Below, piece after piece: positions 20,412 to 50,310 of a stretch of DNA of 64,000 bases; positions within the stretch are counted from its first letter, which is position 1; every line of letters starts with the position of its first letter. The position numbers and the translations under genes are program-made. This DNA comes from a virus: the IMG/VR virus record IMGVR_UViG_3300002461_000311, positions 1 through 64,000 of that record; one strand, given 5' to 3'. The notes below the pieces were generated by a model. The model saw only the letters and a program-made list of their open reading frames with translations. It was not told the origin of the DNA and searched no databases.

Positions 20412-21096
20412 GATCTCTCCCGTAGACCGCGTTGAAGAATCCCGACCGATCGTTCTGCGGGCGCCCCCGGCTCTTCAGGGCGAAGAGCCCGGTCCAGCCC
20501 GCCTCCATCGATTGCCTGATGACCTGCGTCGGGTCGTTGCCCTGCGCCTGCAGCTCGGCAAGGAGCTTGAACTGCCGCTGAGCAAGCGGAGGGCGCACCG
20601 GCTTGCGCAGCTCCTTGGATCGGTACCGCAGCCACGCATCCCAGACCTCGCGGTCCAGCCACGCGGGGACGGTTACTGACGGTTCTATGACGGTTCCTGA
20701 TGGTTCGGGTGCAATAGCTGTTGCACCCTTTTCGACGTCAGGTTGCACCCTTTCTGTCGAAAGTTGCACCCTTTCTGACGCCGGGTTGCACCCTTTTTGT
20801 AAGGGTGCAAGATCTGCACCCTTTATCCATTCCGGGTTGATCCGGTACTCGCGCGGCTGTCCGCGCCCACCCTTCTCATGCCCGACCAGGATCAACCAAC
20901 CCTCGGCCTCCATCTGCCTGAGCTGGTACTGCACGGCGCGCTCGGACTGGCGAGTCTTCGCGGCCAGTGCGGCGACGCTCGGGTACACGTGCGTGCCGTC
21001 TTCGTGAGCGTGGTCGGCCAGAGCGAGTGCTAGCAGCATCTCGCTCCCGCCTCGGTGATAGCGATCGAACACAGCGCTCATCACCTTGACGCTCAT
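20353..21096 (-). CDS. replication initiator (lambda-O-like, N-terminal wHTH) carrying the ori iterons
   Basis: HTH-type N-terminus; iteron array lies inside the gene as in lambda O; GGGAGGA RBS. Confidence 0.7.
   Translation of the reverse strand: MSVKVMSAVFDRYHRGGSEMLLALALADHAHEDGTHVYPSVAALAAKTRQSERAVQYQLRQMEAEGWLILVGHEKGGRGQPREYRINPEWIKGADLAPLQKGCNPASERVQLSTERVQPDVEKGATAIAPEPSGTVIEPSVTVPAWLDREVWDAWLRYRSKELRKPVRPPLAQRQFKLLAELQAQGNDPTQVIRQSMEAGWTGLFALKSRGRPQNDRSGFFNAVYGRDHAQHSDDGAFIHGTAERVG
20709..20826. repeat. origin iterons: TGCACCCTTT x5 direct (starts 20722, 20744, 20765, 20787, 20816) plus one inverted copy (20801-20810)
   Basis: Direct reading; the first four are spaced 21-22 bp (two helical turns). 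Confidence 0.8.
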
Positions 21097-29595: not shown

Positions 29596-29825
29596 AAGGG
29601 CTAGTCACGCTCGATACGTGGATCGAGATCAACTACGAGGAGCCCCGCCCGTCGATCTACACGGCGCGGCGCTGGGTCAAGAACGGCAACATCACGCCCA
29701 GACCGCAAAAGCATGGACGCAGCTACTACCTGCGCCCGGATGCCCAGTACCGCAAAGTGGCGCCTGGATCGAGAACCCGACTCATCGACGTGCTCCATGG
29801 TCAGACACAGAACCAGCCGGCGTAA
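29592..29825 (+). CDS. xis: lambda-type excisionase
   Basis: VTLDTWIEINYEEPRPSIYTARRWVKNGNITPRPQKHGRSYYL aligns by eye with lambda Xis LTLQEWNARQRRPRSLETVRRWVRECRIFPPPVKDGREYLF. Confidence 0.85.
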   Translation: MKGLVTLDTWIEINYEEPRPSIYTARRWVKNGNITPRPQKHGRSYYLRPDAQYRKVAPGSRTRLIDVLHGQTQNQPA

Positions 29826-30882
29826 GGGCTTGCCGGCCAACCTCTACGAGCGCGGCGGCTACTACTCCTGGCGAGATCCGCGCACAGGCCAGGAGCACGG
29901 CCTGGGCCGCGATCGGCTCGAGGCGATCGATCAGGCGATCGAGGCCAACCATTTCGTGGCCGGCAGCGAGTCGAAGAAGCGCCTGGTGGACACGCTCGGC
30001 GGCAGAGCGCAGACCCTCAACGAGTGGCTGGATGTTTTCGAGGTCGAGCTGGCAGATCGCGAGCACGCCAGCTCCACTCGGGCGGGCTGGCGCAGCCACG
30101 TCAAGGCCGCACGGGGCGCGCTGGGCGAGCGCGTGATCACCCGCATTACCACCCGCGAGGTCGCCGACTTCATCCAGTCGTACATCGCCACCGGAAAGCA
30201 TCGCACGGCGCAGAGCACACGCTCTCACCTGTTCGAGATATTCCGCGCAGCTCACGAGCGTGGGTGGGTGACATCGAACCCCGTCGAGGCGACCAGGCAC
30301 ATCGCCGTCAAGGTGAAGCGCGCCCGGCTGACGATCGAGTCGTTCATCGCGACCTACGAAGCCGCCGGCAAGATCGGTGTTTGGTTGCAGAACGCCATGG
30401 CCCTGGCGATCGTCACCGGGCAGCGCCGCGAGGACATCTCGAACGCCCTCTTCAAGGACGTCCACGACGACGCCTGGTGGTGCCGCCAGGAGAAGACCGG
30501 CACGGGCGTCATGGTGCCCCTGGGGCTGCGCCTGGACGCGCTGGGTTGGAGCGTGGGGGATGTGGTGCGCCGCTGTCGCGACAACGTCGTGAGCCGCTAC
30601 CTGATCCACCACACGCGCCGCCGCACGAAGAGCAACCCGGGCGACCAGGTCTGGAAGGACACGATCTCGCGTCGCTTTACCGTGGCGCTGACGATGGCCG
30701 AAGTGAAGTGGCCGGACGGTCGCACGGCGCCGACCTTCCACGAGATCCGCTCGCTCTCGGAGCGGCTCTACAAGGCGCAGGGCATCGACACCCAGGCCCT
30801 GCTCGGACACAAGGACCCGCGCACCACGGCGAACTACCACGACAGCCGCGGCGCGGAATGGATAAAGGTGCAACTCGGATGA
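29797..30882 (+). CDS. int: lambda-family tyrosine integrase with arm-binding N-domain
   Basis: LPANLYERGGYYSWRDPRTGQEHGLGRDR, TGQRREDI, TFHEIRSLS and LLGHKDPRTTANYHDSRG parallel lambda Int along the full length. Confidence 0.95.
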   Translation: MVRHRTSRRKGLPANLYERGGYYSWRDPRTGQEHGLGRDRLEAIDQAIEANHFVAGSESKKRLVDTLGGRAQTLNEWLDVFEVELADREHASSTRAGWRSHVKAARGALGERVITRITTREVADFIQSYIATGKHRTAQSTRSHLFEIFRAAHERGWVTSNPVEATRHIAVKVKRARLTIESFIATYEAAGKIGVWLQNAMALAIVTGQRREDISNALFKDVHDDAWWCRQEKTGTGVMVPLGLRLDALGWSVGDVVRRCRDNVVSRYLIHHTRRRTKSNPGDQVWKDTISRRFTVALTMAEVKWPDGRTAPTFHEIRSLSERLYKAQGIDTQALLGHKDPRTTANYHDSRGAEWIKVQLG

Positions 30883-32094: not shown

Positions 32095-32406
32095 ATGGAG
32101 AAGAACTTCGGCGGGCCGGTCTGGCACGCGAGTATCAGGACGCGCGGAGGGCAGCGAGAAGAGGTTGCGCGTCGCCTTGCCGTGCGCGCCCTGCTGGGCG
32201 TAGGCGATGAGGCGCTCGGAGAGTGGGAAGAGTCTGGGCGATCGGCGTATCACATACGCCGCCGGCTCAGCCTGCGAGAGCAGATCGAGGCCGGGCTCTC
32301 GATGAGAGACGTGCGCGGCACGGACGAGGCGCGCCGTCGAGTGGCTGAACTCGTGCGGGCATTCCCGGCCCTCCATGACTTTGCCATGACGGAGGCACGC
32401 CTGTGA
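32095..32406 (+). CDS. hypothetical protein (103 aa)
   Basis: In-operon ORF. Confidence 0.55.
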   Translation: MEKNFGGPVWHASIRTRGGQREEVARRLAVRALLGVGDEALGEWEESGRSAYHIRRRLSLREQIEAGLSMRDVRGTDEARRRVAELVRAFPALHDFAMTEARL

Positions 32407-32702
32407 GCGCACCCAAGCCCGTGCGGTTCACCTGGTTTCACGCGGTCATGTGTCGGCTGTTCTGCCCCCAGTACCTGGAGAAGATGCCGACGACGGATGA
32501 CAACGAATGGTACGTGGCCGAGACCTACCGGGTGACCTTGTTCGGCCGAGGGAACACAGTGGCATCGGAGTCCGTCCGCGGACGGGTGAACGCATACAAG
32601 CGCGCTCGCTGGCTGGCGTTGATGGCCGACTGGTTCTGGGTGGAGAGCCACCCGGAGGTTGGCGTCAACTGGGGCGTGACCAAGCAGGAGAACGAGTCAT
32701 GA
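32403..32702 (+). CDS. hypothetical protein (99 aa)
   Basis: Overlap coupling. Confidence 0.55.
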   Translation: MSAPKPVRFTWFHAVMCRLFCPQYLEKMPTTDDNEWYVAETYRVTLFGRGNTVASESVRGRVNAYKRARWLALMADWFWVESHPEVGVNWGVTKQENES

Positions 32703-33040
32703 GCGACGAAGAGAAGCTCGAGCCCCTGCCCTGCGGCGCCAAGGGTGTGCGCGAAGACAATTGCGGCGGCGTTCGTTGCATGAACTGCCTGGCGATCTAC
32801 GGCAGCGTGGCGTGCCCCTGTACCGCGCCGAAGCAAGGCGTGCCACAGCGCACGCTCAAGGTGATCAGCCCCACGGGGGTCGAGGCGTTCGCGATCTGGC
32901 AGAAGGTGGATCGCGCATGGGTCTGCACCAGCACCAGCGGCGGCCTGCTCTGGATGCGCAACAACCGGGCCGATGCGGCGGTCGAGTTCATGAAGAAGAA
33001 CGGGTGGAGGTGGGAATGGCTCGAAAAGCAAAGCAACTAA
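32699..33040 (+). CDS. Cys-rich hypothetical protein (113 aa)
   Basis: ATGA coupling. Confidence 0.55.
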   Translation: MSDEEKLEPLPCGAKGVREDNCGGVRCMNCLAIYGSVACPCTAPKQGVPQRTLKVISPTGVEAFAIWQKVDRAWVCTSTSGGLLWMRNNRADAAVEFMKKNGWRWEWLEKQSN

Positions 33041-33351
33041 GGATCGACGATGCGGCGCCCGCCAAAGCGGGGCCGCAACCCATCGCGGTTTCGATCGACG
33101 TGGCGGCGAAGATGCTGAGCGTGAGCAGAACGACTCTCTACCACTTCCTGGACAAGGAAGGCGGCGTGCCGACGTTCCTTGTGGGCAAGCGACGACTGGT
33201 TCGGGTGTCTGCGCTAGAGCAGTTTGCGGTCGCCATGGAGGCGGCGAATAACCAAAGAAACATCGGCGAGGAAATTGAGCAAGGGCTGGGAGAGATTCGC
33301 GCGTGGAACGATGGCGAGAGGCGCCTGAGAACCACGCGAACCAAGAGCTGA
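33016..33351 (+). CDS. HTH (excisionase/MerR-like) DNA-binding protein
   Basis: AVSIDVAAKMLSVSRTTLYHFLDKEGGVPTFLVGKRRLV motif. Confidence 0.6.
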   Translation: MARKAKQLRIDDAAPAKAGPQPIAVSIDVAAKMLSVSRTTLYHFLDKEGGVPTFLVGKRRLVRVSALEQFAVAMEAANNQRNIGEEIEQGLGEIRAWNDGERRLRTTRTKS

Positions 33352-33356
33352 ACCAC

Positions 33357-33440
33357 GGCATGGCATGGCCGGGCTGGGCGGGGCATGGCGCGGCATGGCA
33401 AGGCCGGGCAAGGCAAGGCAAGGGGCTGCTGGTTGCAGCG
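33357..33440. repeat. pentamer-periodic tract (GGCNN)x13 followed by AAGGGGCTGCTGGTTGCAGCG (unit 1)
   Basis: Direct reading: ggcat ggcat ggccg ggctg ggcgg ggcat ggcgc ggcat ggcaa ggccg ggcaa ggcaa ggcaa. Confidence 0.85.
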
Positions 33441-33475
33441 TCAAGCCCATCGGTGACGGTGGGTTTGGCGATGCA

Positions 33476-33580
33476 GGCGGGGCACGGCGTGGCTGGGAAT
33501 GGCAGGGCGTGGCTCGGCACGGCGCGGCGTGGCGCAGCAAGGGGCTGCTGGTGGCAGCGGGTTGGGCGCAATCCCAACCC
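33476..33580. repeat. pentamer-periodic tract (GGCNN)x12 + AAGGGGCTGCTGGTGGCAGCG + 8-bp-stem hairpin GGGTTGGG/CCCAACCC (unit 2)
   Basis: Direct reading; unit 2 starts 119 bp after unit 1 and has the same architecture. Confidence 0.85.
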
Positions 33581-33608
33581 AGTGCCACTAGACCAAAAGG
33601 AGCGATTC

Positions 33609-34184
33609 ATGCATTTGGCGTTTGTTATATCCGGCACCAACCCGCTGATCATGCAGTCTGATCTGCTTGCTGACCCCCTCTCTGAGGGGGCGAAGAAGCT
33701 GAAGACGTTCTCGTCGAAGAAGAGCAAGACCGACGAAGACCATGCGTCGATTGGCGAGATTGAGTTCACGTGGTCCATGTACTATGACGAAGTGATTGGG
33801 CCGTACATCCCTGCGCAGAACGTCGAGCGAGCCCTGCGGGATGCCGCCGCCCTCAGAAAGGCCGGGAAGAATGTGGAGCGCGCCGTCAGCGTGTTCCCAG
33901 ACAGGATTCCATTGCAGTACGACGGCCCAAGAGACCTGGATGCTCTCATTGCAGATCGACGGTTTCACGACCGAAGATCGGTGGTGGTGAACGGGAAGTC
34001 CCGCGTCATGAGAGAGAGGCCAAGGTTCTCGAATTGGCGGCTAGAGTTTGAGGTGCGGATCGACAAGAACATCATCAAGAGCCGTCAGGAGATGGAGTCG
34101 ATCGTCGAGGAGGCCGGGCTCTACATCGGCCTCGGCACCTTCCGCAAGAGGTTTGGGCGATTCACGGTGGAGAGCGTCAAGTGA
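33609..34184 (+). CDS. hypothetical protein (191 aa), lower-GC cargo gene 1
   Basis: AAAGGAG RBS; about 55-58% GC by hand count. Confidence 0.65.
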   Translation: MHLAFVISGTNPLIMQSDLLADPLSEGAKKLKTFSSKKSKTDEDHASIGEIEFTWSMYYDEVIGPYIPAQNVERALRDAAALRKAGKNVERAVSVFPDRIPLQYDGPRDLDALIADRRFHDRRSVVVNGKSRVMRERPRFSNWRLEFEVRIDKNIIKSRQEMESIVEEAGLYIGLGTFRKRFGRFTVESVK

Positions 34185-34681
34185 GTGATGTCAAAAAATT
34201 CCCCATATGGAAGCAGGCCGTTGAAGATTTTGTATCTCAAGACCCCCCGGCCGCCCCTGGGTACATTCTGCATGACCGCTGGCTGCTTGAGCACTTCGAG
34301 ATGAGCAAGCCGACATCAGGGCTCTATGAAGAGATCGCCCGTTTCAACCTTGCGTTCCTGGATAGCAAAACGAAGTTCTTCGCGGCACTACGAGACAACC
34401 ATCAGATTCAGTTTGCCGAAAGAGACGGCGGCGGCTGGCGCTTGCTTCACCCGGCCGAAGTGGCCAGACACTCGATGAGCGAACTGGCAAAGGCAACAAG
34501 GGCGGCAGCGCTGAAGGCCGGCCGCAGGATCAGCAACGTGGACGTGTCGGAGCTAAACGACAGGCAGCAGGCAGAGCTTGCAGACGCCGCCGCCCGCCTC
34601 TCTCGCGTTCGACAAATCGCCAGGAAAGAAACTCGCTTGCCCAGACCCCCGCAGATTTCTGACCGATCGAATGATGGCTAA
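34181..34681 (+). CDS. hypothetical protein (166 aa), lower-GC cargo gene 2
   Basis: GTGA overlap with gene 1. Confidence 0.6.
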   Translation: MSDVKKFPIWKQAVEDFVSQDPPAAPGYILHDRWLLEHFEMSKPTSGLYEEIARFNLAFLDSKTKFFAALRDNHQIQFAERDGGGWRLLHPAEVARHSMSELAKATRAAALKAGRRISNVDVSELNDRQQAELADAAARLSRVRQIARKETRLPRPPQISDRSNDG

Positions 34682-34735
34682 GGTTGCCAATCTACGGCGT
34701 AAGGTTGTCAATACCGACGAACAGAGGCAAGGACA

Positions 34736-35026: not shown

Positions 35027-35106
35027 GCCATAAGGTACCTTGTGGCAAAACTCCGTGGCCACCCCACTGGGTAACCCAGTGGGCAAGCCATTGGGTAACC
35101 CACTGG
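35027..35106. promoter_or_regulatory. cluster of three palindromes (GCCATAAGGTACCTTGTGGC; CCACTGGGTAACCCAGTGG; CCATTGGGTAACCCACTGG) heading a ~490-bp non-coding, lower-GC region
   Basis: Direct reading at 35027-35046, 35064-35082 and 35088-35106. Confidence 0.6.
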
Positions 35107-35456: not shown

Positions 35457-35753
35457 ATGAACGACGTGGAGATGGTGGAGTTTGAGCGCGCCGGGGAGCT
35501 TATCCGATGGGCTCGGATGCAGGCTGGGGCCAGCCAGAGGGAGGTGGCGCGCGCCATGGGTCTTGGCGACACACAGCAAAAGACGGTGTTTCACTGGGAG
35601 CGTGGAAGTCGCGAACCCCTGGCAAGCAACTTCATCGCCGCTTGCCAGGCGTGCGGGTTCAACGTGGTCCTGCTGCCGATGTCCGAGGAGGAGCTAGCGC
35701 GACTCGACGCTGCGCCAGTTGGCGCAGAAGGTAGCTTGCCGTCACAGGGTTAA
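35457..35753 (+). CDS. XRE-family HTH protein (98 aa)
   Basis: ASQREVARAMGLGDTQQKTVFHWERG helix-turn-helix; the 3' end overlaps the convergent gene. Confidence 0.6.
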   Translation: MNDVEMVEFERAGELIRWARMQAGASQREVARAMGLGDTQQKTVFHWERGSREPLASNFIAACQACGFNVVLLPMSEEELARLDAAPVGAEGSLPSQG

Positions 35754-36357
35754 TGCCGTGGGCGGCGGCGATGGCCTTATACGTCATTCCCATCGTCCGT
35801 TGCTTGGCCATTGCGAGAACGGCCTCCTCCGAGACCTTGTTTCTCGGCCTTGCTCCGGTCTTGAATGTGCCGCGATTCGTTTCCGCTTGTTGTTTCGGCG
35901 TGGCCCATCGACAGTTGCTTGGCTCGTAGTTGCCGTCTGGGTCTATCCGGTCTAGCGTGGTCCCGAGCGGCCTTTCGCCCATGTCGGCCAGGAAGGTTTC
36001 GAAGCTGGACCAGCTTGCGCAAACCGAGATACCGCGGCCGCCGTACCACGTCCACTGAGGGGCCTCTGGGTTCGAACACCGCCTGCGCATTTCTTTCCAG
36101 GATCTGTAGGTCCTGGTGTCCGACATTCCGTGAGTAGTTGATCGGCGAAGCAGGACGTCTCTTGATAGACAGCCGCAGGACTTGGTGTGCCCAGAGCGCA
36201 ACTTGAGCGAGTTTGCCTCGGTTGCCGCGCCGCAGTCGCAGCGGCACACCCATATCTTTCCTGTGCTGGACCGCCTGCTAGACGGAGAAACAACGATGAG
36301 CCGGCCAAAGCGCAGGCCAACCAAATCCAATGCCCTGGTACCATCGCGAGCAGCCAT
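35659..36357 (-). CDS. homing-endonuclease-like protein (Zn-ribbon + HNH_3-related core + HTH), copy 1
   Basis: CRCDCG...SCGC, YRSWKEMRRRCSNP...YGGRGISVC and LDRIDPDGNYEPSNCRWAT motifs; paralog at 43342..43935. Confidence 0.7.
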   Translation of the reverse strand: MAARDGTRALDLVGLRFGRLIVVSPSSRRSSTGKIWVCRCDCGAATEANSLKLRSGHTKSCGCLSRDVLLRRSTTHGMSDTRTYRSWKEMRRRCSNPEAPQWTWYGGRGISVCASWSSFETFLADMGERPLGTTLDRIDPDGNYEPSNCRWATPKQQAETNRGTFKTGARPRNKVSEEAVLAMAKQRTMGMTYKAIAAAHGINPVTASYLLRQLAQRRVALAPPRTSAAGPR

Positions 36358-38035: not shown

Positions 38036-41000
38036 CTACTGACCCATCCGCTCCGCGAACTCGCGCTCGATGTCGCGACGCCGGGTAACCTGGCGATCGA
38101 GCCGGGCGTTGAACTCCTCGTCGGAGATGCCGCGACGCTGGCGCTCGCGCCGAGCGGCGCCGATCTTCTGGGAGATCTCGCGCAGCGCCTCATCGCGCTG
38201 GCGGGCAAGGTTCACCCGGCCGGCATCCGCCGGGTAGGAGCCCAGCTTCACGCCAAAGGCCGAGGACAGCGCCTGCGGCAGGTTGCGCTCGCGCCCGAAG
38301 GCGTCGGTCTCGCCGGTACCGGCGGCCTGAATGGCCTTCCAAGAGTAGGTCTGGAAGAGCCCGCGTTGCATCGCGATCGAGTCGGCCGCGTAGCCCACCG
38401 GGTTGGGTAGCGGAAGGTTGGGCATGAGGAACTTGGCGATGTGGTCCATCACCTTCGTCGCGCCCTCGCCGAAGGTGTCGGTCTTGCCGACGATGTCCTT
38501 GCCGGTGAACTGGCTGCGGTTGGAGATCAGCTCGATCATGAGCGCCATCGGGCCGCCCACAGTCATCCACGGCGGCACCGGGATCGCGCTCTTCGAGCCG
38601 TTGAGGTCCATGATGTCGCCACCGGGAATCCAGCGACGCACGTCGAGGAAGACCGGGCTGTCGTTGGCGTCGTTCCAGGGCATGCGAAGGAGCCTCGGGA
38701 ACACCAGCAGCGTGCGCCCAGAGCGCTCGTCGGGCAGTAGCGCCCGCTCCTCCTCCTCGTCGCCGGCCGCGCCCAGCATGCCGTAGGCGAGCGCGTTGAG
38801 CGCATACCCCACGGACAGGTACTTCACCATCTTCCACGGGGTCTTGGTCATCGCGTCGATCAGGATCGGCACGATCCGGTAGGTGAACGCGATGAACGGG
38901 AGCGGGCCGCGGCGCAGGGCCTGAATCCAGGGGGCGTTGATGGAGTAGTCGAGGAACGCCTTGCGGGCGAGCTGCCCCGCCTCGCGGTCAGTCTTGCCGG
39001 CGGCGGTCTCCTTCATGAACTTCGCCAGGCGGAAGACGGCGTCCTCTTGCCGATAGAGGTCGATCATCGCCTTGAAGGGGGCAGCGCCCATCTTGCCCAG
39101 GCGCTTGGCCGTCGAGGTGCTCGCCAGGGCGACGAGCGCCTGCTTGAGGCTGCTGCCGCGCGCCAGGTGGATCGCCTGGATCAGGGACAGGTTCTGCGCC
39201 ACGGTGTCGCGCTCGGACTCCAACTGCTTGAGGATCGGCTCGATCACGTCCTGGCGCATCTCGATGGCAGCGAAGCTGCCGCCCTCGGACCCCGAGTCGT
39301 AGAAGCGCTCCATCATGGCCGAGGCAGCTTCGTCGCCGCGCTTGGCGTCGATGATCGTCACCAGGGCGGCGCGCAGATCCTCCGGCCCCAGGTTGGCCAG
39401 GTCGGCCATGACGACGTTGGCCATCACGTTGTTGGTGTGAACGGCCGGGCTGAGCGCCGTCTTGCTGATCTTCCAGGCGGTCAGAAGATCGTCCCACAGC
39501 CGCCACACGGCCGAGGCGCTGCGGAAGTTCACCGTCGCGCGAATGTCGTTCCAGATGTGCCCAGGAATGAATTGTCCAGCGAGGAGCCCGTACTTCTTGA
39601 GCTTCGTGCCGTAGGCGTTGGTCTTGGGAACTTCCACCCATTCGTTGTCAGCATAGGCGCGCAGGGTCGTCTTCGAGTCGGACGCCTCGGAGATCTTGCC
39701 GCCCGCCGCGATCACCTCCTCCTCGGTCGCCTTGCCGTACTCGGTGCCGACCCACTTGAGGAACTTCGCCGTCTCGATGTCCTGGATGGACGCGAGGGCG
39801 GTGCGTGCGAAGGCGTAGCGGATCTCCTCGATCTCGCCCAGGCGCTCGCGCTCGGGCTTGGAGAGATCGCGCCACATGCCGACGTTGCCATTCTTCTCGA
39901 ACCAGCGCGCCTCCCACACCCCGTCGTTGCGCCAGCCGGCGTGCTTCGCCGGGATGGGCTCGCCCTCTTTGACGTACGCCACGCGCTTGAGCTTGCCCAG
40001 CTCGCCTTCGGCGCCCGGGTCGCGAAGCTCCATGCGCACGTACTTGTCGCCCTTCTGAACACCAGGCAGCCGATCGCCGCTGATGTCGTGACGCAGGCCG
40101 CGTCCCCGATAGGTCTCTGCCCGGATGGCCTTCGCCTTGCGGTTGGCCGACACGAAGGCTGCGCCCTCGACCTCGTGCTTCTGGTAGGAGCGATGCAGGT
40201 ACGCCATCTTGTTGCGCCCGTACGACTCCTCGGAGAGCAGCCCCAGCTCGACAGCATCGCGCCCGAGCTGGTCGATCTGCTCCTTCATCGCCGCGAGAGT
40301 GGCGCGCGAGTCCGCCGGCAGGATCGCCATCATCTGGCGCTCCGCGTCGGTGTCGGGTTTCTCCTGCATCCAGAGGTAGGCGACGCGAGACTCGGCCATG
40401 CTCAGGCTGCCGATCTGGTCGATCATCGCCTTGGACTTGCGCAAGTGCGCATTGACGCGCCGCTCGCGCTCGTCTCGCTCGGAGAGGTAGGGCTCAGGCA
40501 GACCGTAGTCGGCAACGATGCCGTGCGCGATCTGCTGGCGGATGGCGCCGCCCTTGAACCAAGCGGCGGTCGCGCTCGAGACGCGATCGGCGAGCCGGCC
40601 CGTCACCTTGGCGACCGGGGCGAGCGGGAACCGCAGCGCGGCATCCGTTGCCCGGTTGATCGCCTGCGCTGCTTTGGTGACTGGGGCGACGGCCTTGGTC
40701 GCCATCCGCGTTGCGGCGAGCGCCGGCGCCCTCGATGCTTCGATGGCCTCGTCTACAACATCGAGCGCAACGCCAATCGGCTTGAGCGCGGCATCGAGTG
40801 TGCTCGCAACAGTCCGCGCGACTATGCCCGGCTGGTACTCTTGCTCGGCTCGAACGCCGCGATCTCCGCTCGCGACGTCAAGCCCTGGGCGCGCGCTGCG
40901 CGAATAGAGGATAGCTTGGTTCGCAGTGTCGCCTCGGGCCAACATGCCGGGAGAAAGGTGTTTTGAAGATACGCCTCGCTTTCCTCTAGCCCCGGAGGCC

Positions 41001-44000
41001 AAGAGCGATTGCGTAACAATTCCTCGTAGGATAGTTGCGTACCCGCTTCCCGAATCTCGCCCGGCGTCAGTGGCGGCAACGTCGTTTGCCCACTGCTGGA
41101 CTGTTCGCTTGTCGTCTCCACGAGGCACCCTCCACTCGAATTGTGAGGACTCGAAATTATAGCGGGCGGACTTTATTTCGTCTATGGATTGAAGGACATT
41201 CGCATAGGAATCGTAGATCAAAAGACCGAGATTGTAGCGGTCATCGTCGCCGTACTGATCCTCCACTTCTCGCCAGGCATGCTCGACCGATTGGTTCCAC
41301 GAGGGCCTCATCCATTTCGTCGTGCCAAGTCGCAGCGCCGCGCTCATCATCTGGTCGTTGCGACGGATGGCGGCAATCGGCGACACCGCCGCCGGGTCGC
41401 CGATAAAGGTCATCTCATTGTTGGCGGCATACTGCATGGCAACTTGATAGATGGCGCTACCAAGGCCGCTTTCCCGGATGTCGGATGTATCGACCCAGAC
41501 CGTTCGATCGGCGTCGCTTTGGCTAATCAGGCCGCGGATCACGCGGCCACGCCCATCCTTGCCGAGATTGATCGAGAAGGAGTCGTCGCTGAAGTCGTGG
41601 ATGTCGGAGCGGTGGACTAAAGAGCGGTCGCTTTTCTGAATACGCATCCCGAGCGCGATTTCGGTAATCGTCTTCGCGTTCGACCGCCCATAACGAAACG
41701 CTCTTGCGTCGTCCGAGATCTTCAGCCAGGCATCGGCCATGTCCATCAGCCGCCCGGGGGACGGGCGCCCCCCCTCTCCAGGACGCGCAGCACGAGAAAA
41801 CAGAGCCTTCAATGCAGAAGGCCCAGCTTTTTGCTGGGCCTTCGCGGATGCTGCCGGGTTTACTCCAACTCGTCTAGGCGGGGGAATCGGCCGGTCGCGA
41901 TGATTGCCTTTCCCTTCTTCACCTGCTCCGGCGTCAGTTCCGGAATGTCCCCGTTGCGAAACAGCGGGTGATCCGGCTTGAAAGGCCTCCCCTCCTCGAT
42001 CGCCTGCTTGACGAGCCTGTAGTCCTCTTCTCGGGGAAGATACTGCTGTATCCACCACCAAGGAACTGGATCGCCGAATTTTTCCGCGTAGTCCGCGTAA
42101 AGCCTGGCCAAGTCGGTTCCACGGAGTCTTTGAGATGTCGTCGATGAGTCGGAAGGCATGGGGCAACTCCTGCATCATGAGTTCGCGGTTCGTAGTGTAC
42201 GCCCTCACGAGTTGAGCGAAAAGCTCGCGTCGGATTTGGCCGGCCGTCATGGCCTCCCAGTATCCAGTGGCCAGCGGATATTTGAAAAGTTCACTCAACG
42301 GGCCGGTTTCGGCGTCCCAGACAAAAAACACCTCTCGGGCCACCTCGCCGCTCACCTCAATCTTGTCGCCGCTCTTCGTGAGCGCGAATGCGGGATGGAT
42401 CTCCGACAGAAAGCTGCCGTCCTTCTGCTTATCTAAAGCATGACCGAGTTCGTGCGCGATCGTTCCGATGAGGCGCTGCGAGTTGTTGATCGCACGCGGG
42501 ACGCCAGGTGGACCAGCCACATCTTCGTGGACGGTTATGCCATCAAATATGCTCCAGTACGCCCCGTCAATGCCGCCTCGACCCACCATGGCGTCGTCAT
42601 GCACACCCCAGATGATAACGGACTTGGCAGCCCTTTCAAGAATTGGCGAGGCGCGAAGCGTGTCATTGAGAGCTGACGCGATGTTCGCGCGCAGATCTGC
42701 GTGGATGGTACGGTCTAGTCGCCACCTCATCCAGGTCGGGAGCTTTTTATCGCGCCCAGGATCAATGCCGTCGTCCACCCCTACATGCAGGCGTCCATTG
42801 CGATCTTCGCCGACAAACTGAAACAACAACTGCTGGTCGCCGGCTGGGCGACTTAGATCGCCGCGTTGCAGCCACAGCTTGAATGCGTCTACGGTTGGGA
42901 AGGAGGCGATCGATCGAATCCGCTTCTCCCACCCGGCCTCGTATTCGTCTAGGTAGGCGGAGCGAGCCTCTTCCAGGGAGGGGAAGCCCATCATTACCTT
43001 CGCCTCGTCGTGCCTTCCGCTGGGGTTGTTTTGATCAACCACGAACACTGGGCCGTTGTAGTCAAGCGGCATGCCTGGCCTGAGAAAAACATCCACGGCA
43101 TCGCCGTCCTTACCGATGAAGCCGCCTCTGATGTAGCCGTAGTGCGACTTCATCGAGCGCGACCATCGCCTTCCGCCTGCGTCTACGCCAGAGCGGGTAG
43201 ACCCTGCCGGATTCTCGACCGAGATCGACAGTCCGCGCACCACTACCTGGCCGACCTTGTAATTGCCCTGCTTTTTCTGCGCCTCAGTAGGCTCCGGCAA
43301 ATCGTTGGCAGGGGACGTTGCGGCTTGGTGCGCGCCAACGTCTACCGTTGCGCCCGGAGATCCCCGCCTATCAGCGCCCGCTCTATCGGCAAGCCCCGAC
43401 GAATCCTCTCTCGAAGCGTTCGCACTTTCACGCCCAAGCGCCTTGCCCACTTCGGCAGCGTCATCGACTCCCCGTTTAGTGTCAGCATCGCGCTGTCTCG
43501 ACGATCCAGACGTTTCGTATCGAGTTCTCGCCCCGCCCTCGCCCGCCGGTAAAGAGTCTGCGCTGGTTTGCCCAACGCCCTTGCCGCTTCGGCCACCGTC
43601 AGTTGGTGGCCGCCCACCATTACTCGGTGACAATACCGACGATTGGCCGCCTGCTGCTGCCTGGTCGCCCATCGACAGTTGCCTGGCTCGTAGTTGCCGT
43701 CTGGGTCTATCCGATCCAACGTCAACCCCGGGCTCTGCTTTGGCCCGATGTCGCTGAGAAAACGCTCGAAGCTGTGCAGCCAAAGAGGACTGATCGTCAC
43801 GCCCCGCGCCCCGTAGTATTTGAAGTCTGGGCTCTTCGGGTTGAGGCAGCGACGCTTCATGTGCTGCCACGCTTGGTACTCTGCTTTGTACTGGCTTCTG
43901 GGTCCTGGGCTCTTTGCCATCGCTTGTCCTACCATTGGCGCGACCGCGCGACCTTGCTTGGACCTCGAGAGCGGCGTATTTGTTCTCGGTCGGCTGGGGC

Positions 44001-47000
44001 TTATCGTTCTTGGGGGAGGTGGCCGCCTCGTGGGCGGCAGCGTCTACGCTTGCTCGGGCTTCTTGGGCGCCTTCTTCTGCTCGGCGGCCTTCGGCTTCGG
44101 CAAAGCGCCGAAAAAGGTCTGCCCAACGACCCAGGACTGCTGGTAGATTGGGTCGTCCTCCTTCGCGTAAGGAATCCCGAAGAAGTCGTCCTTCTGGGTC
44201 TGCTTGCCAGTCATGGTACGGGTATCCTGTTTCGGCGCCGACAGCGACATAGGACTTCACTTTAGCAGGAAGGTTTCCGCCCTGCACGAGCTTCGTCACC
44301 CCCGCCGCGAACTCCTGGTCGCTCATGACGAACGGCATGCCGTCGTCACCCCTAAAGTTCATGAGCACGATCTCGCGATCGTTCAGGCGGGTGAGCCCCA
44401 TGCCATCGTTCACGTCTCGGCGAACAGCAGCATAAACAGCGCGCAGCTCAGCGTCACCAACATTCGCATCGAAGCTGATCTTCACGCCCTTGGTCGCGCC
44501 GGGGTCGCGCGCAAGCGCGGGGTCGGCGCGGAAGAACGGCACCGCATCCTGACGAAAGACGTACATCCATCCGCGCGCCACGCGCTCCACCACATCGCGG
44601 TCGGCGCGCACCGTGGCAACGGCGTTCGGCGCCACTTGGTTCTCGTAGGCCCCCGCCCCGCCCACAACCTCGAATTGCGAGGGCCTCAGACCGAATGCCC
44701 TGAAATAGACGTCCGGACCACCCTTGCCGAAGACGGCCTTGAGGGCGTTGTCCTGGTAGCGCTGGAGTTCTTCGAGGCTCAGGTTTGCCACCGCCTGGCC
44801 AATCCGTAGCTGCGTCGAGGGGCGCGTCTCTGCCGTGATGGTGGCGCCGGGGCGGCGCCCACGAGACTTCAGGATGTTGCGCACGCTCGCGTCAAAGGCG
44901 CCCGAGTTGCCGAGCGAAGACTTCACGTGCGTCGGCTCGAACGGCATCAGGTGCAGCGTGCCGGGATAGACGCCTTGCATGCCTATGCCGAAGGGGCCGC
45001 GAGCGCGCGGGCCGAACGCCATGTCGGCGTCCATGATGATGCCGTCGTAACCGAGCGCCTCGACCGCCTGGCGAATGATTTCCCCAGGCGACACCAGTTC
45101 GCCGTTGCTGTCATACGCCTCGGAGAGTCCGCTGCGCACCAGGGCCGCGGCGTCGTACGCGCTCTTGCCCTCCGGATCGCTCAGTAGATCAGTAAGCGCC
45201 TCGGAGGCATCGGCATCGTAGGTGGATGCCACGTCGCGGATGGCGTTCGCGAAATCGACGAGCGTGCCGCCCTCGCTGACGATGTCCTCGCCGTCCTCGC
45301 TATACTCAATCTCAGAGGTGAGCTGCAAGCCGCTCGGGCGCATGTCGAACGGGTTCTTCATCTTCACCCAGAGGGGCATGATCAACCCCTTGGAGTCGCC
45401 AGCCACCGCCGCCCTCGCGGATTGCGCGACGGCCTTCTCGAAGAGCAGGTCGCGCACGGTCTCTTTCTGCGCATCGGTCAGCTCGCCATAGTCGAGATCC
45501 GCAAGCGCAACCCCCAGCTCCTCTGCCGCGCGGCGCGCGTCCTCCGGGTTCTTGTCGAGGTGATCGGCCATCGCTTCGTCGAGCGCGAAACTGTCGTCGC
45601 GCCATGCATCGGCGAGCTGCTCTTTGGAGCGCTCGATGCGACCGGTCAGGTCCGGCCCCTCGCCCGCGTAGTTGATGCTCGCGTCGTCGCGCGAGGTCGT
45701 CACATAGAAGCCGTTGCCCAGCCAGCCTTCGGCGGTGCCGGCCCGGGGCGCCGTGTCGATCTCCTGAATGTTCGAGTGCGTCGTGCCGTGGAAGGCTTCA
45801 AACACTGCTGGCCCGCCCTCGTAGTCCTCCGTCTGCTCGGCGCGAACCACGGGCATGCCCTCGGACCAGCGCTTGAAGGCATCGGTGTCGATCTGATCGG
45901 GCGGCGGGACGAACTGCTCCTGGCGAGCAGCGGCACCGCGGGACTTGAGGGCCTCCATGTCGCGCTTCACGCCCGAGGCGGCCGGCGTCGGGCTCGCCGA
46001 CTCGGACTTGACCCAGTCGGCCGTAGCCTGAGCGAGCGCCTTGCGGGCCGCGTCGAGATCCTTGATGTACTGAGCGGACTCCAGGCCGGGCCGGCCGAGA
46101 CCGAGCTTCGAGCGGATCACATCCAGGGTCAGCATCACCGCGTCGCGGATCTTCATCACCATGGAGCGATCGAGCCCCTTCAGCACCTGGCGCCAGAACT
46201 CGGGCTCGTTCATCCGATCGCCGAGCATGTCGGCCATCAGCTCCTCGGTGACCAGATCCTCGGAGGCGCGCGCCTTCGGGTTGTCGGTCTCCTCCTGGAT
46301 GGCGGCGTCGAGCCACGCGCGATAGCGCGCGGTGTCGCGCATCAACGGCGCCATCCGGGCGACCAGCGTGCGGTAGACGGCGCCGTTGGAGCGGCGCAGC
46401 GAGTGCAACAACTCGTGGCCAATGATGGCCAGGTGGGAGCGGGTCGCGTCCGCGTTGATGTAGATCGTCGACGGGTCGCTCGGGATGATGAATCCCTGGG
46501 CCTGGTCTTCGGGCTTTACGGGCTTGGCGTACCGGAAGAAGACGACGCGTCGCTTGAAGATGTCTCGGGCGACTCGCAGTCCTGCTGCAACATCAGCGGA
46601 AGCAGGCACCTCAGCCTCGGTCGCGAGACGGGCGAGCCCTCCGGTGGCGGCGGTGACGCGCACCCCTTCGTTGGGTCGGGGTGCGTCGCCCCGGCGCCAC
46701 ATGGGCGGGGTGTCGTCGGTACCGGTGGCTTCGGTGTCATTGAGCGTTCCCTCTCGCAGGGCCTTGCGATACTCGGTCGCGCGGCGGGTGAGGCGCCACG
46801 CGCCGCTCGGCGTAGGATAGCCGAAGCCCAGCTCGATCGCGCGGCGGCGCTCGGACTGGTTGAGCCGCTCGCCCTTGAACAGGCGCTCGGCCCAGTTCTG
46901 ATCGTTGGCGCTCGGGGCCTGCTCGCGCAGAGCAGTGCGCCGCGCCAGCTCGCCGGCCGCGCGCTCTTGCGCTTGCTTGGCGCCTTTCCTGGCAACGAAT

Positions 47001-48793: not shown

Positions 48794-50310
48794 CGTGCCG
48801 CCTCCCACGAGCTGGGCGAGTTCGGGTCGCCACCCTTGAATCGGAAGCCATCGACGACGCCACCCACCACCGGGCCGCCGGCTGACCTGGGATTGCGATT
48901 GCCGATCGGCTCCAGGCCGGGGGCGCCGCGGATCTGCTTGGTCTCGGCCCCCAATGCGGCGGTGACGCGGGCCGCTTCGGCCTTGCTCAGCTTGGTAGCC
49001 GGCAGGAGGCGACGCACATCGTCAGCGCTCCATCCGCCCTCTTCCACCATGCGGCGGACGAACGCCGCCAGCGCCTTGTTCTTCGTCTCATCGCGATAGT
49101 TGCCTTTCTCTGACGCGCTCAGCGCCGAGCGCAGCGTCTCATCGAGCGACACGGCCCGGTCGCGGAACTCGTAGTAGACGGTCTCGAACGCGGTCTCGGG
49201 GTTGGAACCGCTGCGGATGCGCTCGCCCAGCGCGCTCTTCATCGCCGGCAGCAAGGTCATCATGCCGTTGACGTTGAACTTCGCATCCTCCTTGGCCTGC
49301 TCACCCTCGAGCAGGCGCCGGTACCCGAGCGCGCCCTTCTCGATCAGATCGTTGACGTCCTTGGGCTTGAGCCCGCCGCCGCTGGTTTCGCGGCGAAGGT
49401 TCAGGGTGGCGTTCCGGTAGCTCTGGATCGCGTCGATCTCTGCCTTCTTGAGTTTCTCGTTTGCCTGGTTGTGCCGCACCGTCTCTGCCTGGGCCGCCTC
49501 CCGGGTCGCAACCTCGCGCTTCTTCAGCCCGACGTTCGGGTCCTTGTCCCACTCCCAGAGCTTCTGGGCGCGGGCGCGCGATTGCTGGTAGTCGATCTCC
49601 ATCGACTTGGTCGGGTCAGACATCATGGCGATGTGACTCTCCAGCTCCTGCTCGGTCATCGTCTTCGGGATGCGCTGCCCGTTGTACTCGAAGACCATGG
49701 CGTAGGCGCGCTCGCCCTTCTCGTTGGTCGTCGGCTTGAACGATGCCGGGTCGATCTTGCCGCCGTCGCCCCAGAGGTTGTTGTAGACATCGACCACGCC
49801 GGACGCGTCGCCCGTGGTCTTGAGCCGAGCGTAGGCATCGCCCGCCGTGCGCTTGCGCAGATCCGCGCGCATGGCCGCAGCGCGCTGGAGATGCTGGTCA
49901 GCCAGATCGATCCGGCCGCGCGCCGCGTAGGCATTCGCCATGGCCTCGGCCGCCGCCGCAGCCGCGCCCTCGCGACCGAACCGGCTCGGTGTACCGGGGC
50001 GCGCCGCCTGCTCGAGCGCCTCCTCGGGCGGGCGCTCGAAGAGATCGCCATCATCCCCAGCCGATGGGCCGGGCATCGCGGGCGCCGCCGGCCCGCCCAT
50101 GGCGCGCTCGAACGCAGTTCGACCCGCTTCGCGCGCCTCGTTGTTCAGGCGCTCGATGTCGTCGGCCGTGCGCTTCTCGCGCTCGGAGCGATCCCGCTCG
50201 AACTCGAAGCGTTGCTTGTCCCGATCGTCGCGCTCCTGCTTCGAGCGACGATCGACCGCCGTCTGATACCCAGCAATGCCTCCAGAGAGGAACGCCCCGA
50301 GTCGACTCAT
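48790..50310 (-). CDS. internal virion / ejection-associated protein (506 aa)
   Basis: Charged coiled-coil-rich protein immediately upstream of the giant gene and coupled to it. Confidence 0.7.
   Translation of the reverse strand: MSRLGAFLSGGIAGYQTAVDRRSKQERDDRDKQRFEFERDRSEREKRTADDIERLNNEAREAGRTAFERAMGGPAAPAMPGPSAGDDGDLFERPPEEALEQAARPGTPSRFGREGAAAAAAEAMANAYAARGRIDLADQHLQRAAAMRADLRKRTAGDAYARLKTTGDASGVVDVYNNLWGDGGKIDPASFKPTTNEKGERAYAMVFEYNGQRIPKTMTEQELESHIAMMSDPTKSMEIDYQQSRARAQKLWEWDKDPNVGLKKREVATREAAQAETVRHNQANEKLKKAEIDAIQSYRNATLNLRRETSGGGLKPKDVNDLIEKGALGYRRLLEGEQAKEDAKFNVNGMMTLLPAMKSALGERIRSGSNPETAFETVYYEFRDRAVSLDETLRSALSASEKGNYRDETKNKALAAFVRRMVEEGGWSADDVRRLLPATKLSKAEAARVTAALGAETKQIRGAPGLEPIGNRNPRSAGGPVVGGVVDGFRFKGGDPNSPSSWEAAR

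What the first reader, a model, noticed from the sequence alone, without database searches (positions are those of the whole stretch)
33352..33608. Twin pentanucleotide-periodic (GGCNN)12-13 tracts, each capped by the same 21-nt hairpin-forming box
This intergenic region is the first sizeable one downstream of int. Unit 1 (33357-33440) has 13 consecutive GGCNN pentamers followed by AAGGGGCTGCTGGTTGCAGCG. Unit 2 (33476-33559) has 12 pentamers and the same box with one change, followed by the 8-bp stem GGGTTGGG/CCCAACCC. A 5-nt period cannot be coding and is not CRISPR-like. GG every half helical turn suggests a multimeric protein-binding array, a protein-sponge RNA, a two-tetrad G-quadruplex-prone element or a recombination/packaging site. 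I know of no described phage element with this architecture.
Basis: seen in the sequence. Interest (0 to 1): 0.72.

Follow-up and report, generated by a model that had tools for sequence, protein, structure and literature searches.

The report
VIPR guide-RNA array in a phage
The two GGCNN tracts are very probably the guide RNAs (vrRNAs) of a phage VIPR system, a CRISPR-related RNA-guided DNA-silencing system first described in two 2026 preprints, so this is a real but already explained kind of element.

Summary
Window 33357-33421 has 13 in-phase GGCNN pentamers. Window 33476-33540 has 11 GGCNN plus GGAAT and AGCAA. Each tract is followed by the same 21-nt box, with one difference in the hairpin loop. 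Nowhere else in the window exceeds 5 of 13 in phase.

The tracts lie directly upstream of a 191-aa gene (33609-34184). Its product matches PDB 36pp 'SUSP1 Vipr protein' (E 3e-31; family profile 1.7e-67; 38% identity) and models as a Cas7/Csm3-like RAMP (pLDDT 96). The next gene (34181-34681) is homologous to SUSP1 vap1.

This is the type II VIPR layout of bioRxiv 10.64898/2026.04.26.720920 and .720927. In that system, vrRNAs carry 9-16 GGY/NN repeats and a structured 3' tail. One Vipr protomer binds each repeat, and the NN dinucleotides pair with DNA while skipping every third target base.

In 80 related viral loci I found 204 such tracts on the vipr strand and 2 on the other. NN positions have near-maximal entropy and the tail hairpins covary.

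I found no convincing natural target and there are no expression data. New details are modest: a co-varying Q/T replacement of the G1-reading H/D pair, and a single SNP between two environmental copies that falls on a guide NN. Verdict: new member of a known kind.

The parts
33357..33421 (+). vrRNA1 repeat tract: 13 x GGCNN. NN = AT AT CG TG GG AT GC AT AA CG AA AA, then the conserved terminal AA.
   Evidence: The GGY/NN architecture is as defined for vrRNAs in 10.64898/2026.04.26.720920.
33422..33475 (+). vrRNA1 3' tail. Hairpin 1 is GCUGC(33425-33429)/GCAGC(33435-33439) with loop UGGUU. Hairpin 2 is predicted at 33439-33452 / 33457-33470.
   Evidence: Fold z-score -5.8. Hairpin 1 covaries across loci and hairpin 2 also covaries. 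Coordinates.
33476..33540 (+). vrRNA2 repeat tract: 11 x GGCNN, one degenerate GGAAT (repeat 5) and a terminal AGCAA. NN = GG AC GT TG AT AG GT TC AC GC GT GC, then AA.
   Evidence: Position 33500 (second N of repeat 5) is the only difference from an independent 2.3-kb environmental copy.
33541..33591 (+). vrRNA2 3' tail. Hairpin 1 is GCUGC(33544-33548)/GCAGC(33554-33558) with loop UGGUG. Hairpin 2 is GGGUUGGG(33559-33566)/CCCAACCC(33573-33580). An alternative outer helix is 33548-33556 / 33583-33591.
33596..33602 (+). Shine-Dalgarno-like AAAGGAG, 6 nt before the vipr ATG.
   Evidence: Homologues are also about 190 aa and align from this start.
33609..34184 (+). vipr: a 191-aa RAMP (Cas7-like) protein, predicted to polymerise with one protomer per pentamer on the vrRNA.
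   Evidence: PDB 36pp_D 'SUSP1 Vipr protein' E 3.1e-31; family profile E 1.7e-67. 38% identity to the phiSUSP1 gene. phrog_4652 E 1e-49. AF2 pLDDT 96.4. Foldseek top hits are Csm3/Cmr4/type VII Cas7.
34181..34681 (+). vap1-like accessory gene (166 aa). Its GTG start overlaps the vipr stop codon (GTGA).
   Evidence: phrog_5926 E 4e-15. 26% identity, E 3e-7 to phiSUSP1 vap1. 31% identity, E 2e-14 to the LESphi2 neighbour. A homologue is present in 85 of 88 related loci, and immediately downstream of vipr in 80.
33016..33351 (+). Context only: an HTH_17 / excisionase-like gene whose stop codon lies 5 nt before the first repeat. Read-through from this operon is the likely source of the vrRNA precursor (inferred).
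   Evidence: Pfam HTH_17 E 2e-6. No sigma-70-like promoter or terminator in 32500-34500.

Best explanation
The region is the guide-RNA array of a type II-like VIPR (Viral Interference Programmable Repeat) system carried by a temperate phage.

Inferred steps, by homology with the SUSP1 and P. fulva systems:
- The + strand is transcribed, probably by read-through from the int-xis-like operon.
- The transcript is processed into two vrRNAs of about 100-120 nt. Each has 12 variable GGC-NN repeats, a conserved GGCAA/AGCAA repeat and a structured 3' tail (the '21-nt box' hairpin plus a second hairpin).
- The product of the next gene, Vipr (33609-34184), polymerises along each vrRNA with one protomer per pentamer. 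It buries each GGY and exposes the NN dinucleotides.
- The exposed NN read double-stranded DNA by the '1-nt skip' code, so the target has the form NNxNNxNN...
- Binding forms a gapped R-loop/triplex that blocks transcription. The downstream vap1-like protein enhances the effect.
- Predicted target patterns are ATnATnCGnTGnGGnATnGCnATnAAnCGnAAnAA for vrRNA1 and GGnACnGTnTGnATnAGnGTnTCnACnGCnGTnGC for vrRNA2.
- The biological role is most likely silencing of a competing phage or mobile element.

Shown here: the sequence architecture, the protein homology and fold, the gene synteny, the strand-locked co-occurrence of tracts with vipr, NN hypervariability and tail covariation.

Inferred only: transcription, processing, filament assembly, the DNA-targeting rule and the repression outcome for this particular locus.
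For: 1. Tracts and boxes are verified and far beyond chance.
2. The adjacent protein is a Vipr. It matches PDB 36pp_D 'SUSP1 Vipr protein' at E 3e-31 and the family profile at 1.7e-67. It is 38% identical to the phiSUSP1 gene. The AF2 model has pLDDT 96.4, and Cas7-family RAMPs are its best structural matches.
3. Key SUSP1 RNA/DNA-contact residues named are kept: R137 (=R138, invariant), R179, K32 (=K33) and aromatic F178 (=W178).
4. A vap1 homologue lies immediately downstream with overlapping stop and start codons.
5. The same architecture (GGY-NN tract, then GGG-hairpin) flanks vipr homologues in Pseudomonas LESphi2 and Medea1, Felix-O1-like BPS15Q2, phiSUSP1 itself, Gordonia MakoManhole, and Xanthomonas and Contendobacter contigs.
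6. In 80 IMG/VR loci there are 204 tracts on the vipr strand and 2 on the opposite strand, and 70 of 80 loci have at least one tract.
7. Repeat positions 4 and 5 have entropy 1.94 and 2.00 bits.
8. Tail hairpin 1 is 92% paired, with 21 compensatory cells; 0 of 500 shuffles reach this and all slid registers score far lower. In the RNAalifold consensus of the tail, 11 of 16 pairs show compensatory changes.
10. There is no self-target of 19/24 or better in the window, as the preprint reports for natural systems.
Against: - There are no transcript, processing or binding data for this locus.
- No sigma-70-like promoter was found upstream. The tract starts 5 nt after the preceding stop codon.
- No convincing natural target was found in IMG/VR, GTDB genomes or JGI metagenomes. 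The few 20-base pattern hits are at the number expected by chance.
- SUSP1 D177, whose alanine mutant is inactive, is T177 here, and H17 is Q16. This is a clade-wide coupled change, but it is untested.
- vrRNA2 has one non-GGY repeat (GGA).
- The SUSP1-type pseudoknot is not evident in vrRNA1.
- The repeat-position statistics for positions 1-3 are partly circular, because tracts were detected by GGY.
Confidence: 0.93

Rival explanations
1. It is a genuine VIPR locus that is decayed or idle. The RNAs may still bind Vipr, but the system no longer targets anything, or Vipr is impaired by loss of the H/D pair that reads G1.
For: No natural target was found. D177, essential in SUSP1, is T here. There is one degenerate GGA repeat.
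Against: The Q/T pair is shared by 7 of 51 family members and co-varies perfectly with H/D, which argues for a functional alternative rather than decay. Vipr and vap ORFs are intact. 24 of 25 non-terminal repeats keep GGC. Both tails are intact. The target databases searched do not include the source sample, and only exact sub-patterns could be scanned.
Confidence: 0.05
2. The tracts act in cis as an RNA leader or decoy. Vipr would bind its own 5' UTR to autoregulate translation, or the RNA would sequester a host or phage protein (a sponge), without guiding DNA recognition.
For: The array lies directly 5' of vipr on the same strand, and vrRNA2's tail ends about 18 nt before the start codon. 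The multi-site periodic layout resembles sponge RNAs and the TRAP leader (my own knowledge).
Against: In related loci the same units lie downstream of vap, or between vipr and vap, as often as upstream: 129 upstream and 75 downstream. That is not expected of a leader. NN positions are maximally variable while GGY is fixed, which fits guides and not a fixed binding site. Guide function was shown experimentally for homologues at 38% identity.
Confidence: 0.02
3. It is a DNA-level element: an att/pac/ori-type protein-binding array, a G-quadruplex-prone tract or a host REP-like repeat.
For: It is near int and an excisionase-like gene. GG recurs every half helical turn.
Against: The 204:2 strand bias relative to vipr points to a transcribed product. 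Compensatory changes in the hairpins point to RNA structure. The element travels with vipr into unrelated contexts: next to a DNA ligase in Felix-O1-like phages, between terminase and portal in L008, and near tail genes in Medea1. No other copies exist in the window, so it is not a dispersed REP.
Confidence: 0.01

Closest known systems
Type II VIPR systems (Escherichia phage SUSP1; Pseudomonas fulva prophage), bioRxiv 10.64898/2026.04.26.720920 and 10.64898/2026.04.26.720927
   Same: - vipr followed by vap1.
- vrRNAs with 12-13 GGY/NN pentamers and a conserved structured 3' tail, on the same strand as vipr.
- Phage-borne.
- The array lies upstream of vipr, as in the P. fulva locus (vrRNA1-3, vipr, vap1).
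- The G-loop, the thumb arginine, and the K and R contacts are conserved.
   Different: - Only 38% (Vipr) and 26% (vap1) identity to SUSP1.
- Y is almost always C, whereas it is U in SUSP1.
- The G1-reading pair H17/D177 is replaced by Q16/T177.
- The tail appears to be hairpin 1 plus hairpin 2; the SUSP1 loop-to-downstream pseudoknot is not clear in vrRNA1.
- No own promoter was detected.
- The natural target is unknown.
Class 1 CRISPR effector backbones (Cas7/Csm3/Cmr4 filaments on crRNA)
   Same: The protein has a RAMP fold with a glycine-rich loop and a thumb (Foldseek E 2e-6 to 1e-4, TM about 0.5). The protein polymerises periodically on a guide RNA that ends in a structured handle. Thumb-induced base flipping gives gapped pairing.
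   Different: - The period is 5 nt with 3 guide bases sequestered and 2 read, versus 6 nt with 5 read.
- The repeats lie inside the guide.
- There is no CRISPR array, no cas1/cas2 adaptation genes, no PAM and no nuclease in this type.
- The system is encoded by phages.
TRAP-trp leader RNA and CsrB/RsmZ-type sponge RNAs (my own knowledge, not tested here)
   Same: Short G-rich motifs are repeated many times with 2-3 nt spacers. They are bound by a multimeric protein with one motif per subunit.
   Different: Those RNAs regulate or titrate their binding protein and carry no programmable information in the spacers. There is no homology between the proteins. Here the spacers are hypervariable and act as the guide.

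Membership tests
VIPR system (type II) | A Vipr protein: a small (~20 kDa) single-RRM RAMP with a G-loop and thumb, homologous to characterised Vipr. | tested here: met
   PDB 36pp_D 'SUSP1 Vipr protein' E 3.1e-31 over residues 5-189; profile E 1.7e-67. 38% identity to the phiSUSP1 gene. AF2 pLDDT 96.4. Csm3/Cas7 are the best folds. The G-loop GLGTFRKRFGRF and R137 are conserved.
VIPR system (type II) | vrRNA: 9-16 tandem YNNGG (GGY/NN) pentamers next to vipr, on the same strand. | tested here: met
   13 and 12(+1) pentamers at 33357-33421 and 33476-33540, 73 nt or more upstream of vipr on the + strand. In related loci the strand ratio is 204:2.
VIPR system (type II) | GGY conserved while NN is hypervariable. 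| tested here: met
   In the window, G1 is 25/26, G2 is 26/26 and C3 is 25/26, while NN uses all four bases. Across 186 distinct tracts, positions 4 and 5 have 1.94 and 2.00 bits of entropy. Positions 1-3 are partly fixed by the way tracts were detected. The only SNP between two copies of this phage is in an NN.
VIPR system (type II) | An invariable, structured 3' tail capping the repeat tract. | tested here: met
   The two 21-nt boxes differ at 1 loop base. Hairpin 1 is 92% paired with 21 compensatory cells, and 0 of 500 shuffles reach this. Hairpin 2 covaries. Tail folds have z-scores of -5.8 and -3.4. The SUSP1-clade pseudoknot is not clearly present, and the preprint restricts it to that clade.
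VIPR system (type II) | A vap1 accessory gene adjacent to vipr. | tested here: met
   34181-34681 is phrog_5926. E 3e-7 to phiSUSP1 vap1 and E 2e-14 to the LESphi2 neighbour. A homologue is found in 85 of 88 related loci. Its DNA-binding fold was not tested: there were no homologues in the word-indexed search to build an alignment and no PDB match.
VIPR system (type II) | Viral or proviral genomic context. | tested here: met
   Lambda-type integrase, excisionase-like HTH, RecT-like protein, SSB, GH108 endolysin and holin are in the window. The source is a 65,454-bp metagenome contig.
VIPR system (type II) | vrRNAs are expressed as ~100-nt RNAs and co-purify with Vipr. | not testable with these tools
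   This needs sRNA-seq or a pull-down. It has been shown only for SUSP1, P. fulva and some type III/V loci.
VIPR system (type II) | NN dinucleotides match natural DNA targets under the 1-nt skip rule (>=80% NN match), with no self-target. | tested here: inconclusive
   No self-target of 19/24 or better in the window. No exact full-length or 10-NN matches in IMG/VR. One GTDB hit and three JGI hits to a 20-base sub-pattern of vrRNA1 are at chance expectation. Three of the four lie in a conserved argJ motif with the skipped base at codon position 1. Only exact patterns could be scanned, so targets with mismatches would be missed.
CRISPR-Cas (class 1) | A CRISPR array of direct repeats separated by unique spacers, with cas adaptation and effector genes. 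| tested here: not met
   There is no repeat-spacer array. There are no cas genes among the neighbours by Pfam or PHROGs. Only the RAMP fold is shared.
Known Rfam RNA families | A match to a curated covariance model. | tested here: not met
   No family reaches its gathering score anywhere in the window.

The most novel reading that the evidence does not exclude
This locus belongs to a Vipr subclade in which both residues that read the first guanine of every repeat in SUSP1 (H17 and D177; D177A is inactive) are jointly replaced by Q and T. This subclade might read its repeats through different chemistry, or even with a slightly different pairing or skip rule. A different rule would also explain why the published 1-nt-skip search found no target here.
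Probability: 0.1. Interest if true: 0.5.

Novelty: new member of a known kind. Interest (0 to 1): 0.3.

Why it matters
VIPR is a newly described form of RNA-guided DNA recognition and a proposed ancestor of the CRISPR RAMP effectors. Each new, well-delimited locus adds natural guides, tails and protein variants to a family with only a few characterised members. This locus gives:
- a compact two-guide array in a GC-rich temperate phage;
- a natural Q/T variant of the G1-recognition pair;
- a possible example of guide change by point mutation.

It does not open a new question by itself. As a test of the scan, it shows that the first-stage reader picked out a real and biologically important element from raw sequence alone.

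Tried and rejected
1. Rfam at gathering threshold on the whole window found nothing. ARAGORN found nothing. The promoter/terminator scan of 32500-34500 found nothing.
2. blastn of 33000-34700 and megablast of 36001-61000 against GenBank phages gave no match. The phage has no close sequenced relative and the host stays unknown.
3. Target prediction with the published 1-nt skip rule:
   - Full-length patterns and four 10-NN sub-patterns in IMG/VR gave 0 hits.
   - An 11-NN vrRNA2 pattern in JGI metagenomes gave 0 hits.
   - The 10-NN vrRNA1 pattern gave 1 hit in GTDB genomes (Enterococcus aquimarinus argJ) and 3 in JGI metagenomes: two more argJ sites and a 1.3-kb contig with no clear gene.
   - I rejected these as targets. 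About one hit per database is expected by chance for 20 specified bases. The argJ matches put the skipped base at codon position 1. The organisms have 41-55% G+C against 65% for this phage.
4. The 21-nt box is absent from IMG/VR.
5. No fetched VIPR locus, nor the window itself, carries a match of 19/24 or better to either guide. Shuffled guides reach 16-19.
6. A vap alignment for structure prediction could not be built, because the word-indexed search returned only the query itself. There is no PDB sequence match. The vap fold was therefore not modelled.
7. The long ORF 33303-34184, in frame with vipr across the tracts, was rejected as a gene. It exists only because GGCNN repeats contain no stop codons. 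Homologues start at the ATG at 33609, which has its own Shine-Dalgarno sequence.
8. The first related-loci run failed because the alignment was too diverse. It was repeated with a closer alignment.

Full report
**1. Observation**

Reading 32800-34200 and counting GGC by 5-nt phase confirm the description.
- 33357-33421 holds 13 consecutive GGCNN pentamers.
- 33476-33535 holds 11 GGCNN and one GGAAT, followed by AGCAA.
- The boxes AAGGGGCTGCTGGTTGCAGCG (33420-33440) and AAGGGGCTGCTGGTGGCAGCG (33539-33559) differ at one loop base.
- The 8-bp stem lies at 33559-33566 / 33573-33580.
- Elsewhere in the 64-kb window no 13-pentamer stretch has more than 5 (+ strand) or 4 (- strand) in-phase GGC.
- A relaxed GGY/GG scan finds no other tract on either strand.
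- Tandem Repeats Finder also reports period 5 at both places.

**2. Surroundings**

The tracts fill the gap between two genes.
- Upstream is an HTH_17 / excisionase-like gene (33016-33351), whose stop codon is 5 nt before the first repeat.
- Downstream is a 191-aa ORF (33609-34184) preceded by AAAGGAG.
- Its stop codon overlaps the GTG start of a 166-aa ORF (34181-34681).
- Pfam finds nothing significant in either downstream protein. PHROGs places them in phrog_4652 (E 1e-49) and phrog_5926 (E 4e-15), both of unknown function.
- The wider window is a temperate phage. It carries a lambda-type integrase at 29713-30882, RecT-like and SSB genes, a GH108 endolysin and a holin.
- The window is identical to an ENA activated-carbon metagenome contig of 65,454 bp.

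**3. The lead from relatives**

tblastn of the 191-aa protein found homologues in 131 GenBank phages, all annotated as hypothetical. They include Felix-O1-like coliphages and Salmonella phages, Pseudomonas LESphi2 and Medea1, and Gordonia and Mycobacterium phages.

The intergenic DNA next to these genes shows the same architecture despite very different base composition.
- LESphi2 has three GGCNN tracts, each ending in GGGCTG-loop-CAGCG.
- Salmonella phage BPS15Q2 has GGTNN tracts ending in GGGTAG...CTAC or GGGTGG...CCAC, behind a consensus-like TTGACA-17-TATACT promoter.
- Gordonia MakoManhole has one tract.

A periodic tract plus hairpin is therefore a conserved partner of this protein family.

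**4. Identification**

A profile of the family matches one PDB entry, 36pp 'SUSP1 Vipr protein', at E 1.7e-67. The window protein alone matches at E 3.1e-31.

[quoted passage not shown] The companion cryo-EM preprint is 10.64898/2026.04.26.720927. Together they define VIPR systems as follows.
- A small RAMP protein (Vipr) and usually one accessory gene (vap).
- vrRNAs made of 9-16 YNNGG repeats, with conserved GGY alternating with hypervariable NN, capped by an invariable structured 3' tail.
- One Vipr protomer binds each repeat in a helical filament.
- GGY is sequestered and the NN bases pair with DNA while every third target base is skipped.
- Binding represses transcription. Natural targets are mostly competing phages and satellites.
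- Type II is exemplified by SUSP1 and a P. fulva prophage and carries vap1.

**5. Membership tests run here**

Protein:
- It is 38% identical to the phiSUSP1 vipr product (L016 28474-29061).
- The AF2 model has pLDDT 96.4.
- Its best PDB folds are Csm3, Cmr4 and type VII Cas7 subunits. That fold library predates 36pp.

Accessory gene:
- It is 26% identical (E 3e-7) to phiSUSP1 vap1 and 31% identical to the LESphi2 neighbour.
- An iterative search from the window's vap finds a homologue in 85 of 88 related loci. In 80 of them it lies immediately after vipr, usually with the same 4-nt overlap.

RNA:
- In 80 IMG/VR loci encoding relatives, a simple detector finds 204 tracts on the vipr strand and 2 on the other.
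- 70 of 80 loci have at least one tract. 129 tracts are upstream of vipr and 75 are downstream.
- The commonest tract lengths are 9-14 repeats.
- Positions 4-5 have 1.94 and 2.00 bits of entropy across 186 distinct tracts.
- Conservation at positions 1-3 is partly imposed by the detector.

Tail:
- Hairpin 1 is 92% paired, with 21 compensatory cells (GCUG/CAGC, GCGG/CCGC, GCCG/CGGC, GCUA/UAGC). This exceeds 500 of 500 shuffles and all slid registers.
- The RNAalifold consensus of the tail has compensatory changes in 11 of 16 pairs, mostly in the second hairpin.
- The window's two tails fold with z-scores of -5.8 and -3.4.
- An alternative helix pairs the 3' half of hairpin 1 with sequence beyond hairpin 2. 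It is predicted in both the alignment and vrRNA2, so the exact tail topology is not settled.
- The SUSP1-type loop pseudoknot, visible, is not evident in vrRNA1.

**6. Mechanism for this locus**

All of this is inferred by homology.
- The + strand is transcribed. No promoter-like site was found, so read-through from the upstream operon is the simplest source.
- The transcript is processed into two vrRNAs.
- Each vrRNA carries 12 guide dinucleotides. The 13th repeat (GGCAA / AGCAA) is conserved across loci and probably belongs to the handle.
- About 12-13 Vipr protomers coat each RNA.
- The filament binds DNA of the form NNxNNx... and silences it, assisted by the vap1-like protein.
- The contact residues named for SUSP1 are mostly kept: R137, R179, K32 and aromatic F178. 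The G1-reading pair H17/D177 is Q16/T177.
- In the 51-sequence alignment these two positions co-vary perfectly: H/D 39, H/E 4, N/D 1, Q/T 7.

**7. Targets**

I converted the guides by the published rule.
- There is no self-match within 3 mismatches or at 19/24 or better in the window. This agrees with the preprint's controls.
- Exact scans with full-length and 10-NN patterns found nothing in IMG/VR.
- An 11-NN vrRNA2 pattern found nothing in JGI metagenomes.
- The 10-NN vrRNA1 pattern gave one GTDB hit and three JGI hits.
- Three of the four lie in the conserved (V/I)DGDTSTND motif of argJ in low- to mid-GC organisms, with the skipped base at codon position 1. The fourth is on a 1.3-kb contig with no convincing gene.
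- With 20 specified bases in about 10^12 bases, roughly one chance hit per database is expected. I treat these as chance.
- The natural target is unknown.

**8. Comparison and novelty**

The element works like, and passes every testable criterion for, a type II VIPR system. It shares only the RAMP-filament principle with class 1 CRISPR. It has no repeat-spacer array and no cas genes.

The kind is already described, but this metagenomic phage locus is a new member. Differences from the characterised members:
- low identity (38% and 26%);
- C rather than U at the Y position;
- the Q/T pair in place of H/D;
- a tail that looks like two hairpins rather than a pseudoknot;
- no promoter of its own.

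**9. Verdict**

A multimeric protein-binding RNA array is right. Sponge, G4 and packaging roles, and 'not CRISPR-like', are not supported.
- Best explanation: a VIPR vrRNA array, confidence 0.93.
- Interest is 0.3. The finding is real and belongs to an important, very recently discovered class, but the published work now explains it. The locus-specific novelties are incremental.

Noticed in passing
window 33500 (vrRNA2, repeat 5, second N): An independent Logan contig (SRR28154522, 2313 bp = window 32123-34435) is identical to the window except for one base, 33500 T>C. That base is a guide NN position (GGAAT -> GGAAC). About 50 of the 2313 positions are guide NN, so the chance of this is about 2%, but it is a single event.
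   Followed up: partly
window 33609-34184, residues Q16 and T177: The two residues that read G1 of each repeat in SUSP1 Vipr (H17, D177; D177A is inactive) are Q and T here. The two positions co-vary perfectly in a 51-sequence alignment: H/D 39, H/E 4, N/D 1, Q/T 7. The Q/T loci still have GGC repeats.
   Followed up: partly
L004 (Gordonia phage MakoManhole, PQ184807.1) 1650-1693, 2985-3026, 3103-3144: The vrRNA tracts of this actinophage VIPR locus are flanked by three copies of a tRNA-like minihelix: an acceptor-like stem GCUCGG/CCGAGC plus a T-arm with a GGUUCGACUCC loop and a discriminator A. It looks like an RNase P / RNase Z processing signal. ARAGORN and Rfam do not call it, and the VIPR preprint mentions hammerhead-interspersed arrays but not tRNA-like ones.
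   Followed up: partly
L011 268-296, L012 3969-3997, L013 3687-3715: The first 10 NN of vrRNA1 match the reverse strand of the conserved argJ (ornithine acetyltransferase) motif (V/I)DGDTSTND in Enterococcus aquimarinus and two metagenome contigs, at 21-23 of 24 guide positions. I judged this to be chance: the number of hits is as expected, the codon register is wrong and the G+C content does not fit.
   Followed up: yes
window 35063-35106: A 12-nt tandem repeat (CCCACTGGGTAA x 3.7) lies in the ~490-nt non-coding gap upstream of an HTH_3 / cI-like gene (35457-35753). It may be a set of operator or iteron sites.
   Followed up: no
window 20720-20796: A 22-nt tandem repeat (GTTGCACCCTTTCTGACGCCAG x 3.5), with a 10-nt repeat just upstream at 20668-20705. 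It is iteron-like and lies upstream of the recombination/replication genes.
   Followed up: no
window 38036-48808 (- strand): A single 3590-aa ORF follows the lysis genes. It contains a segment resembling the HNH-like gene at 35659-36357. It is presumably a giant virion or ejected protein.
   Followed up: no
L020 2583-3283 and L026 3824-4128 (IMG/VR loci): Some relatives carry long arrays of 6-9 vrRNA units. Those of L026 are packed back to back with almost no tail between tracts, which resembles the 'staggered arrays' mentioned in the preprint.
   Followed up: no
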